Positions 16,301-32,114 of a DNA stretch of 64,000 nucleotides are shown here, in pieces (position 1 is the stretch's first letter; each line of letters opens with the position of its first letter). The DNA comes from the human T2T-CHM13v2.0 reference genome, Homo sapiens. Location: the NCBI RefSeq assembly GCF_009914755.1, contig NC_060947.1; one strand, given 5' to 3'. A program made the position numbers and the translations under genes. The notes beneath the pieces were generated by a model. It worked only from the letters and a program-made list of their open reading frames with translations. It was not told the DNA's origin and made no database searches.

Positions 16301-16608
16301 GCTGTCCAGGCCAGGGCTTTGTGATGGCAGAGCTCAGGTTTTCCCTCCCACACCTTGCATGCCTTGAACTCCTGAGCCACATTTCCCCCTGAGAGACATT
16401 GGCATAAGAGATGCCCAGGGACTTTTAAAGGAACGTAGTAAAGGCACTCTTTCCTAGACTTTCCATATTTCTCCAAAGAGAAAGCAAGCTCCTTTCTTCT
16501 TCTGAAAGCCTGTCCTGTGGAAGTATCAAGCAGCTTTTCTCTTGGATCTCCAGGGCCACATTTTGGGAATTCCCTTGAGTCTCCCAGCCAATGTTAGGTG
16601 GTCCTATT

Positions 16609-16790: not shown

Positions 16791-16944
16791 CTTCTTTGTC
16801 CCTCATGTGTTCCCAGTCCTCACTCCTCCAAAGGAAAGGGTTTGAGCAACCAACCACCACACAGTTGGAAGAACTAGCTTGCCTTGGTAACATAAAGTCT
16901 TGGCTTACTTGCTTGCTGTCTTCCTCCTTCCTGGGTACTGAAGC

Positions 16945-17525
16945 TGTTTTAAAATGTAGGTTTTATTATTATTCAGGTACAGTGAGGCCAACAGATCAGG
17001 AGATGGACAATTCCATTGAAAAGACAGTTTGTTACTCACAGATCCTCCCAAGAGGAGGGGCTATACCACATCATGGGGGCCCACACGGGGAAGCACTAGG
17101 GTGGGTCAGGAGACAGGAGAGGGTACAACTGTGGACAAGAGTCTTACTTGTGGTTTTCATGGGAAGGAACAGGCAAGGCAGGGTAATCAGGCTTTGGATT
17201 GGCTAGTTTCAGGAATTTCAGTGGGCTCTGGGGCATCCCAGGGCCAAGTACCAGACAACTAAGGACATCTATGCCTTAGTTGTCTGGTACTTGGCCCTGG
17301 GATGATTAGGGCAGGTGGATGGTGACCTGGAGTGTGAGAGCTGCATAAAGGAAGTGGTTGGGATGTGGACTCTGGATTGGTTGGTTCGCATATGAAAGGA
17401 GCTCTCCCAGGTGAGTTGTTTGCTATCTCTAGGAATTACCTAGCCCTGGGAGGTGCAGCTCCTCTAGGGTGAACAAGGCCCCAAGATGTCAAAGCATCAA
17501 AAATACAGAATTAATGCAAAAGCCA
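16945..17525. mobile_element. ERVL-class solo LTR (LTR53-like; family uncertain)
   Basis: caggtacagtgaggccaacagatcaggagatg...ggattggctagttt...gatgtcaaagcatca. Confidence 0.6.
17234..17304. repeat. Perfect inverted repeat: 31-bp arms, 9-nt loop
   Basis: catcccagggccaagtaccagacaactaagg / acatctatg / ccttagttgtctggtacttggccctgggatg. The arms are exact reverse complements. Confidence 0.98.
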
Positions 17526-30850: not shown

Positions 30851-32114
30851 TGCCTGTGGCATTATCTCCTCACCTAAACTTGATTAATCTTGTCCCTGCA
30901 GGGATCTCAAAGGGATGTGTCGAGAGATATCCCTTTGATGGCCTTCCCACACCTGCCTCTATCTGATTTATCCCCTGGTAAAAATTTTGCCTCGCCCAAA
31001 AGTCATGGAGTAGGAACCGTTCTCACAAAGTATAACTAAAAACTTGGGGCATCCAACACCACCTGATTTTGCAATTCAGGGTGTTGCAGTCAAGAGGTTG
31101 TTGCCATTAATTCTTGTTTGTATAGTCTAACATTCATTTCGTGGCGTGATGTGGTGCTTATCTGTGATATCTAGGTTTGGGGGTAGAAAATGACACAAGC
31201 CTTGTTGCTATGATGTTGCTATACCTTCCATTTAGCCACAGGTCCAATATGATAGTGCCCTGAGCATCTGGAAAAACAAGATGCTCAGCCCAAACTCATA
31301 CTTCCATGATGGTTAGATCAGAGTTATTGCGGAGAAACAACAAAGAGATCCTAGCCTTGACCTTAATCAAGCTATAGCTGTGTCGAAATAAATAATTTCT
31401 AGCCATGATGTCCTCTCTCTTTGGACATTGTGGACACTTGAGTGAGGTTTTTTTAAGCTGCTCACATGCTGAAAGCTTATGTTAAACCCTCTCCCTGTGT
31501 TGATGCAGATTTAGAAAATTTCATGGATAAAAATTGATGGGGTTACAATTGTTACCCACTTTGAATTTAACAACCTTAAACATAATACAGTAAACTTCCC
31601 TCATAGTATGCAAGTAAAATGCCATGCCATGAAGTTGATGAAAAATTGGGCAAGTCTTCATAGCTACCTGGCCAGGAGTTCCAGAAGTCTGACTGTGTGA
31701 TCAAAATCTGTTCTAGCACTGGCTGCAGTTTCTGGTGGCAGTGGACCTCTCTGGCTTAAATATTCATGGGGATGATTCTGGGTCCTATGGTTGGCTAGGA
31801 TACTCCAGGAATCTCCTGGAGAGTTGGCACTCTTTCATTGGCCTATTTGGGGAGATTGGGTCAGAAGAATACTGGGGACTCAGGGACTTACTGTCTTCCT
31901 CCCTGCATCACTTGCTGACACAGGGTTGCCTGCCATTTCCCAGTCCAGCCTCACCTTCCCCTACACAATTCTATCCACTTTCCCCTAAATAGAAGTTTAT
32001 TTTGCCCCTTTTTGAAAGCACAACCCACCACTAACTGCATTAAATCCAGAATCTTGCTATCATGGGTGACTTATTGCAGGGTTTTACTCTTGAACTTATC
32101 TTTGCTTCCAACTC

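What the first reader, a model, noticed from the sequence alone, without database searches (positions are those of the whole stretch)
17225..17312. Perfect 31-bp hairpin created by a template switch inside an old LTR: candidate de novo miRNA-like stem
Seen: the arms 17234-17264 and 17274-17304 are exact reverse complements around a 9-nt loop, inside an otherwise old, diverged ERVL-type LTR. Bases 17234-17275, including the loop, are the exact reverse complement of GGCATAGATGTCCTTAGTTGTCTGGTACTTGGCCCTGGGATG. So the locus reconstructs as ancestral ...GGGGCAT-AGATGT-CCTTAGTTG..., with 6 nt replaced by 37 nt (+31 bp). The switch points fall on microhomologies (CAT going out, CC coming back). Established: this is the signature of short-range template switching during replication (the four-point model of Loytynoja and Goldman), a described route to de novo miRNA hairpins. 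On a + strand RNA, 17225-17231 can pair with 17306-17312 (three G:U pairs) after a 2x1 loop, giving a ~38-bp stem near Microprocessor-substrate length. Inference: zero arm mismatches imply a recent event, and the L1 strand bias suggests the region is transcribed. It could also extrude as a DNA cruciform.
Basis: partly seen in the sequence, partly recalled or inferred. Interest (0 to 1): 0.8.

Follow-up and report, generated by a model that had tools for sequence, protein, structure and literature searches.

The report
Template-switch hairpin in NHS intron
A replication copying error placed a backwards copy of 31 neighbouring bases inside an old retroviral remnant in an intron of the human NHS gene, making a perfect hairpin of a common, already described kind with no sign so far that it is a microRNA gene.

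Summary
Arms 17234-17264 and 17274-17304 are 31 nt and 100% complementary around a 9-nt spacer. The + strand RNA folds at -83.2 kcal/mol, z -9.17.

The template-switch origin is well supported:
- 25 of 25 paralogous copies of the repeat lack the left arm.
- The spacer fits those copies better when reverse-complemented in 20 of 25.
- The 31-mer occurs without mismatch nowhere else in the assembly.
- All 3 copy-specific substitutions of the right arm are mirrored in the left arm.

This is type 1-3-4-2 of Loytynoja and Goldman: an inverted repeat with an inverted spacer.

"Recent" is only weakly bounded. No primate orthologue could be examined.

The miRNA reading is untested. No Rfam family reaches its threshold, and the hub table lists no miRNA here. 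The published base rate is 57 of 6,054 such hairpins annotated as miRNAs. However, hsa-mir-4768, in an NHS intron 58.7 kb upstream, is listed as template-switch-born.

Verdict: a real, clean new member of a known kind. Low to moderate interest.

The parts
16945..17507 (.). Old dispersed repeat copy with LTR-like TG...CA ends that hosts the event. It is 563 bp here, or 532 bp without the 31-bp gain.
   Evidence: Paralogue match coverage starts at 16939-16949 and ends at 17502-17518. 13 full-length paralogues measure 507-543 bp, and 8 of 13 start with the same 8 bases. 45 matches at 68-79% identity in the own genome, with 956 candidates of which 40 were scored.
17234..17264 (+). Left arm: the new, reverse-complement copy of the right arm. 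This is the bulk of the 2->3 fragment of the template switch.
   Evidence: 100% complementary to 17274-17304. Absent from 25 of 25 paralogues. It carries the mirror image of all 3 copy-specific substitutions of the right arm.
17265..17273 (+). 9-nt spacer, inverted relative to the repeat family.
   Evidence: The reverse complement scores higher than the forward reading against the homologous segment in 20 of 25 paralogues, ties in 3 and scores lower in 2. Mean scores are 3.46 against 2.1.
17274..17304 (+). Right arm: native repeat sequence and donor template.
   Evidence: Aligned to all 25 paralogues. At 28 of 31 positions the window's base is the one most paralogues carry (16-25 of 24-25); the other 3 positions are copy-specific.
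17225..17231 (+). 5' side of the 7-bp basal extension of the stem. It forms on + strand RNA only and includes 3 G:U pairs.
   Evidence: MFE structure. It is absent on the minus strand RNA.
17306..17312 (+). 3' side of the 7-bp basal extension.

Best explanation
One short-range template-switch mutation during DNA replication, of four-point type 1-3-4-2, struck an old LTR-like repeat copy in an intron of NHS. Synthesis left its template just after GGGG(CAT) and copied about 40 nt of the opposite strand backwards, from the far end of what is now the right arm through the spacer. It then returned at the start of the right arm (CC microhomology). The result is a net gain of 31 bp, a perfect 31-bp inverted repeat and an inverted 9-nt spacer.

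The product is most likely a neutral by-product. In NHS pre-mRNA it folds into a stem of about 38-40 bp that is removed with the intron. Nothing shows that it yields a functional small RNA.

Shown: the repeat structure, its absence from paralogues, the spacer inversion, the local donor, and the fold.
Inferred: the replication mechanism, the single step, the timing, and neutrality.
For: - Perfect arms and exact 42-nt reverse-complement identity.
- 25 of 25 paralogues lack the left arm.
- The window copy is about 20-56 bp longer than the 13 full-length paralogues.
- The spacer fits the family better when inverted in 20 of 25 paralogues.
- The 31-mer has 0-mismatch matches only at the two arms in 3.1 Gb. 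There are none at 1 mismatch and 3 at 2 mismatches.
- 3 of 3 copy-specific substitutions of the right arm are shared by the left arm, so the copy was made from this already diverged element.
- Homologous segments of the paralogues fold at -34.3 +/- 5.6 kcal/mol (best -47.7) against -83.2 here.
- For neutrality: no Rfam family reaches its gathering score, no miRNA is annotated here in the hub's RefSeq table, and 57 of 6,054 comparable hairpins (0.9%) are annotated miRNAs.
Against: - No orthologue from another primate and no second human haplotype could be examined. The pre-event state therefore rests on paralogues that are 21-32% different from the window copy.
- The spacer is only 9 nt. In 5 of 25 paralogues the inverted reading is not better.
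- A two-step history (inverted duplication, then spacer inversion) gives the same sequence.
- Against 'no function': an NHS intron already hosts hsa-mir-4768, listed as template-switch-born with well-defined read stacks. The architecture here also lies within the range of accepted template-switch-born miRBase hairpins such as hsa-mir-4782.
Confidence: 0.8

Rival explanations
1. The hairpin is a young, unannotated miRNA or endogenous siRNA precursor. It would be expressed from the NHS intron on the + strand and cut by Drosha and/or Dicer into about 22-nt RNAs.
For: - The stem is 31 perfect bp plus a 7-bp extension on the sense strand of the host gene (hub table).
- It meets the size and loop-position criteria that Monttinen et al. 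used for 'miRNA-like' template-switch hairpins: stem of 30-55 and a central loop.
- 81 of 99 intragenic template-switch-born miRNAs lie in sense introns.
- hsa-mir-4768, in an NHS intron on the gene's strand, is one of them.
- The best Rfam look-alike, mir-4782, is also template-switch-born.
Against: - The best Rfam score is 47.5 bits against a gathering score of 100, and it lies on the minus strand.
- No miRNA is annotated at this place in the hub's RefSeq table.
- The apical loop is 9 nt (4 nt in the MFE fold), whereas 10 nt or more is preferred (paper's introduction).
- The stem lacks the mismatches said to aid processing.
- By eye, and with motif definitions recalled rather than tested, no CNNC lies in 17305-17340 and no UGU/GUG lies in the loop.
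- The base rate is 0.9%.
- Neither 22-mer appears in the full text of any searched paper.
Confidence: 0.04
2. Two separate events produced the structure. The first was an inverted duplication of the right arm placed upstream of the spacer. The second was a later inter-strand template switch that inverted the spacer.
For: Loop inversion after hairpin birth is documented at hsa-mir-4713 and mmu-mir-3086. The final sequence would be identical.
Against: It needs two rare events where one suffices. The arms show no change that would mark elapsed time between the two steps.
Confidence: 0.08
3. The left arm is a fragment of another copy of the same repeat family, inserted or converted in inverted orientation, and not a copy of the neighbouring sequence.
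For: The family has hundreds of copies (956 candidates). Three other copies match the 31-mer with 2 mismatches.
Against: No other place in 3.1 Gb matches with 0 or 1 mismatch. The left arm shares all 3 substitutions private to this copy. The inverted identity runs on through the spacer and 2 further bases, 42 nt in all.
Confidence: 0.02
4. The repeat is an assembly error, or a variant private to the sequenced haplotype.
For: Only one assembly was examined.
Against: The junctions show the exact microhomology pattern of a known mutation type. I could not test this further. A polymorphism would still be a template-switch event.
Confidence: 0.03

Closest known systems
[quoted passage not shown]
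   Same: A perfect inverted repeat made in one step, an inverted spacer, switch points on short microhomologies, and an RNA or DNA hairpin as the product.
   Different: Nothing in kind. This instance lies inside a transposable-element copy. At least one catalogue excludes such events by requiring that the donor is not RepeatMasker-masked. The 40-nt inverted fragment is long compared with the chrX intervals in that catalogue's table, which are mostly under 30 nt.
hsa-mir-4768 (an NHS intron, 58.7 kb upstream)
   Same: It is listed in Dataset S1 of PMC10710096 as template-switch-born, with host ENSG00000188158, inside a large intron and on the gene's strand. The locus folds into a long near-perfect stem at -58.2 kcal/mol.
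   Different: It is a miRBase entry with defined read stacks (d = 0.040) and CLIP targets. Its listed template-switch length is 22 against about 40 here. No sequence relation between the two was looked for.
hsa-mir-4782 (Rfam RF03356)
   Same: It is the best Rfam look-alike (47.5 bits, E 2.7e-8). It is itself a template-switch-born, near-perfect 43-bp hairpin in a sense intron.
   Different: It is not homologous. The score is below the gathering score of 100, the match lies on the minus strand, and BLAST finds no similarity between the window repeat and the real mir-4782 locus at E up to 10 beyond 10-15-nt chance words. mir-4782 has an 11-nt loop against 9 nt here.

Membership tests
Template-switch mutation, type 1-3-4-2 | A fragment that is the exact reverse complement of adjacent sequence and is long enough to exclude chance (at least 14-15 nt) | tested here: met
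   40 nt, or 42 nt with microhomology, at 100% identity.
Template-switch mutation, type 1-3-4-2 | The pre-event state, seen in an outgroup, lacks the inverted copy | tested here: inconclusive
   25 of 25 paralogues lack it, but paralogues are proxies. No orthologue from another species is on hand.
Template-switch mutation, type 1-3-4-2 | Spacer between the arms inverted relative to the pre-event state | tested here: met
   The reverse complement fits better in 20 of 25 paralogues, ties in 3 and fits worse in 2.
Template-switch mutation, type 1-3-4-2 | Donor is local, meaning the adjacent sequence of the same copy | tested here: met
   The only 0-mismatch matches in the assembly are the two arms. 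3 of 3 private substitutions are shared.
miRNA-like template-switch hairpin (criteria of PMC10710096) | New stem of 30-55 bases with its loop in the central third of the event region | tested here: met
   31-bp perfect stem, 38-40 bp with extensions, and a central spacer.
miRNA-like template-switch hairpin (criteria of PMC10710096) | No equally long hairpin in the parent sequence | tested here: inconclusive
   Paralogue segments fold at -34.3 +/- 5.6 kcal/mol against -83.2 here. No reconstructed parent or orthologue was available.
Canonical miRNA gene | Match to a curated miRNA family, or annotation as a miRNA | tested here: not met
   0 Rfam families reach their gathering score; the best is 47.5 against 100. 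The hub's RefSeq table lists no miRNA in the window.
Canonical miRNA gene | Stem of about 35 bp with an unstructured apical loop of 10 nt or more | tested here: not met
   The stem length is close (38-40 bp), but the loop is 9 nt at most and 4 nt in the MFE fold. The preference is quoted.
Canonical miRNA gene | Precisely processed reads of about 22 nt with 2-nt 3' overhangs, dependent on Drosha and Dicer | not testable with these tools
   No small-RNA or CLIP data are on hand. Neither arm 22-mer occurs in any searched paper's text.
mir-4782 family (RF03356) | Score at or above the gathering score, and sequence homology | tested here: not met
   47.5 bits against 100. The true locus scores 108.9. 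There is no BLAST similarity of the flanks or the hairpin.
   TG at 16945 and CA at 17506-17507. Paralogues measure 507-543 bp. There are 45 matches from 956 candidates.
   The flanks share 3 of 5 bases in the window and show no clear duplication in the paralogues. No repeat library (Dfam or Repbase) is on hand to name the family.

The most novel reading that the evidence does not exclude
The hairpin is a second template-switch-born small-RNA precursor in an NHS intron, alongside hsa-mir-4768. It would be a newborn miRNA or endo-siRNA locus caught in its pristine state, with no post-event mutation, and overlooked because it lies in a transposable-element copy that catalogues and miRNA annotation tend to filter out.
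Probability: 0.04. Interest if true: 0.55.

Novelty: new member of a known kind. Interest (0 to 1): 0.25.

Why it matters
The locus is a clean, fully resolvable example of one-step hairpin birth by template switching. The donor, the inverted spacer and both microhomologies are all intact.

It has two points of mild interest:
- It lies in the same host gene, and on that gene's strand, as a miRBase miRNA attributed to the same mechanism. If it is processed, this would be a natural 'before maturation' comparator.
- It sits inside a transposable-element copy. At least one great-ape catalogue discards events whose donor is RepeatMasker-masked, so events of this sort are under-counted there.

It opens no new question. 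Tens of thousands of such stems are already reported on the human lineage.

Tried and rejected
1. Homology to mir-4782. The Rfam hit suggested shared sequence. However, the real locus (L031) shows no BLAST similarity to the window repeat. I rejected homology and kept it as an architectural look-alike.

2. Published event lists.
- In Walker et al. 2021 (PMC7954356) a term search of both readable supplements for numbers beginning 1747-1750 gave no chrX row.
- Part 28 of 28 of table s015 shows no chrX event between 16.37 and 21.56 Mb. The file has 122 'chrX' mentions, and about 8 chrX rows in part 27 were not seen.
- This absence is uninformative, because donors masked by RepeatMasker were filtered out.
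- The event lists of PMC9435742 and PMC5453318 are PDFs that cannot be read here.
- The list of 6,054 hairpins of PMC10710096 is not in its one readable file.

3. Full-text search for either arm 22-mer found 0 papers. Supplements are not covered by that search.

4. I looked for stray copies of the locus in genome contigs and viral contigs with a 26-mer. Both gave 0 matches.

6. A target-site duplication check at the repeat ends gave no clear result.

7. mir-4768 has no Rfam family at gathering score, so no model-based comparison was possible.

Full report
**Observation**

The window reads a perfect inverted repeat. Arms 17234-17264 and 17274-17304 are 31 nt and 100% complementary, with 9 nt between them (sequence).

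On + strand RNA, 17200-17340 folds at -83.2 kcal/mol against -46.7 +/- 3.98 for shuffles (z -9.17, 0 of 200 as good). The fold also closes two pairs inside the spacer, leaving a 4-nt terminal loop.

The minus strand RNA keeps only the 31+2 bp stem, at -70.6 kcal/mol. As single-stranded DNA, 17225-17312 folds at -40.5 kcal/mol, z -11.78.

No other short-spacer inverted repeat in the 64 kb comes close. The next is 22 nt at 77%. By my arithmetic the chance expectation for such a repeat in the window is about 8e-13.

**Host element**

A search of the window's own assembly with 17000-17480 returned 45 matches from 956 candidates, of which 40 were scored. Non-self identities were 68-79%. Paralogue coverage of the window begins at 16939-16949 and ends at 17502-17518.

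The copy starts TG at 16945 and ends CA at 17506-17507. It is 563 bp, whereas 13 full-length paralogues are 507-543 bp. It is therefore an old dispersed repeat with LTR-like ends. I could not name the family or test 'ERVL', and target-site duplications were not clear.

**Origin of the hairpin**

I aligned 25 paralogues that span the site, out of 29 non-self loci fetched. The 4 that do not cover query positions 180-350 were dropped. Only the rows for a 131-column slice were printed.

- 25 of 25 paralogues lack the left arm. All carry the right arm and a segment of 8-19 nt (12 nt in most) where the window has its spacer.
- Against that segment, the window's spacer scores higher as its reverse complement than as read in 20 of 25 paralogues. 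It ties in 3 and scores lower in 2. Mean scores are 3.46 against 2.1. The spacer is therefore inverted relative to the family.
- The 31-mer occurs with 0 mismatches only at the two arms in the 3.1-Gb assembly. It occurs nowhere with 1 mismatch and at 3 places with 2 mismatches.
- Three positions of the right arm (17276, 17291, 17302) carry a base shared by only 5-6 of 24-25 paralogues. All three are mirrored in the left arm, since the arms are perfectly complementary. The copy was therefore made from this already diverged element.
- Homologous paralogue segments fold at -34.3 +/- 5.6 kcal/mol (best -47.7) against -83.2 here.

CAT at 17234-17236 and CC at 17274-17275 can each be read as belonging to either side of a junction.

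Placing the four switch points on the pre-event order gives 1-3-4-2 (this step is my inference). With the microhomologies assigned the other way it gives 3-1-4-2. [quoted passage not shown]

**Timing**

- The star-tree estimate of the window copy's own branch is 0.113 substitutions per site.
- 43 of 418 positions (10.3%) carry a base shared by fewer than 30% of paralogues.
- The right arm has 3 such positions in 31, which is the same rate.
- With no change since the event in 62 arm bases, P(0) = exp(-6.7 f), where f is the fraction of the copy's lifetime that follows the event. This gives f < 0.45 at 95% and f < 0.10 at 50% (my arithmetic).
- The calculation assumes a uniform rate and no later homogenisation of the arms. 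The paralogues were chosen as the best matches to the window, which biases the branch estimate downward.

The event is therefore late in the element's history, but 'recent' is not pinned down. No primate orthologue or second human haplotype is reachable with these tools.

**Published catalogues**

- Walker et al. 2021 list no chrX event near the expected hg38 place. They discard events whose donor is RepeatMasker-masked, so this absence says nothing.
- The other lists are unreadable PDFs or are not deposited in readable form.

**RNA-level reading**

By the hub's table, the window lies wholly inside an intron of NHS on the + strand. The hairpin is therefore transcribed in sense with the host.

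Monttinen et al. 2023 (abstract, Results and the first part of Methods read) report the following for genic regions on the primate-to-human lineage:
- 53,666 putative template-switch mutations.
- 31,007 of these form new stems.
- 6,054 are of miRNA size.
- 57 of the 6,054 (0.9%) are annotated in miRBase.

The present stem meets their size and loop-position criteria. Their gene scan excluded only simple repeats, so the locus may already be among the 6,054. I could not check this.

Evidence against a miRNA:
- No Rfam family reaches its gathering score. The best is mir-4782, at 47.5 bits against 100, on the minus strand.
- The real mir-4782 locus shares no BLAST similarity with this repeat.
- The hub table lists no miRNA here.
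- The loop is shorter than the preferred 10 nt or more.
- The stem lacks the mismatches said to help processing.
- By eye, with motif definitions recalled, there is a basal UG at 17222-17223, but no UGU or GUG in the loop and no CNNC in 17305-17340.

Evidence for keeping the possibility open:
- hsa-mir-4782 is itself in Dataset S1 as template-switch-born. It folds into a 43-bp near-perfect stem.
- hsa-mir-4768 lies 58.7 kb upstream in an NHS intron, on the gene's strand. It is also in Dataset S1, with stack quality 0.040 (fold of its locus).

**Verdict**

The template-switch origin is strongly supported through paralogue evidence, though not yet by orthologues. The structure is a textbook type 1-3-4-2 event.

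The miRNA idea is a legitimate but low-probability possibility, which I put at about 4%. This is a new member of a known and numerous kind, and interest is 0.25.

Noticed in passing
outside the window, at window places -41529..-41456 (L037:100-173): MIR4768, the nearest annotated miRNA, lies in an NHS intron on the gene's strand. It is listed in Dataset S1 of PMC10710096 as generated by a template switch. Its locus folds at -58.2 kcal/mol. It has no Rfam family at gathering score.
   Followed up: partly
window 31248-31300: This is a second short-spacer inverted repeat: 22-nt arms, 77% complementary, with a 9-nt spacer. 31225-31325 folds at -33.1 kcal/mol, z -4.46. It could be an older, decayed hairpin of the same kind. 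Its origin was not examined.
   Followed up: partly
L031:1501-1579 (own genome, contig C2): The hsa-mir-4782 hairpin is a 43-bp near-perfect palindrome whose pairing runs on into its flanks. An Alu-like repeat lies about 600 bp away, at L031:2170-2487, and matches many other loci.
   Followed up: no
window 16303-16378: There is a weak Rfam match to mir-3135 on the + strand (19.9 bits against a gathering score of 80, E 2.2). It is most likely chance.
   Followed up: no
window 17233 and the paralogue segments: Just after the GGGG run, paralogues read either CA or TG (for example CATAG against TGTAG). This is the pattern expected from decay of an ancestral CpG. It shows how diverged the family is at the switch point.
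   Followed up: no
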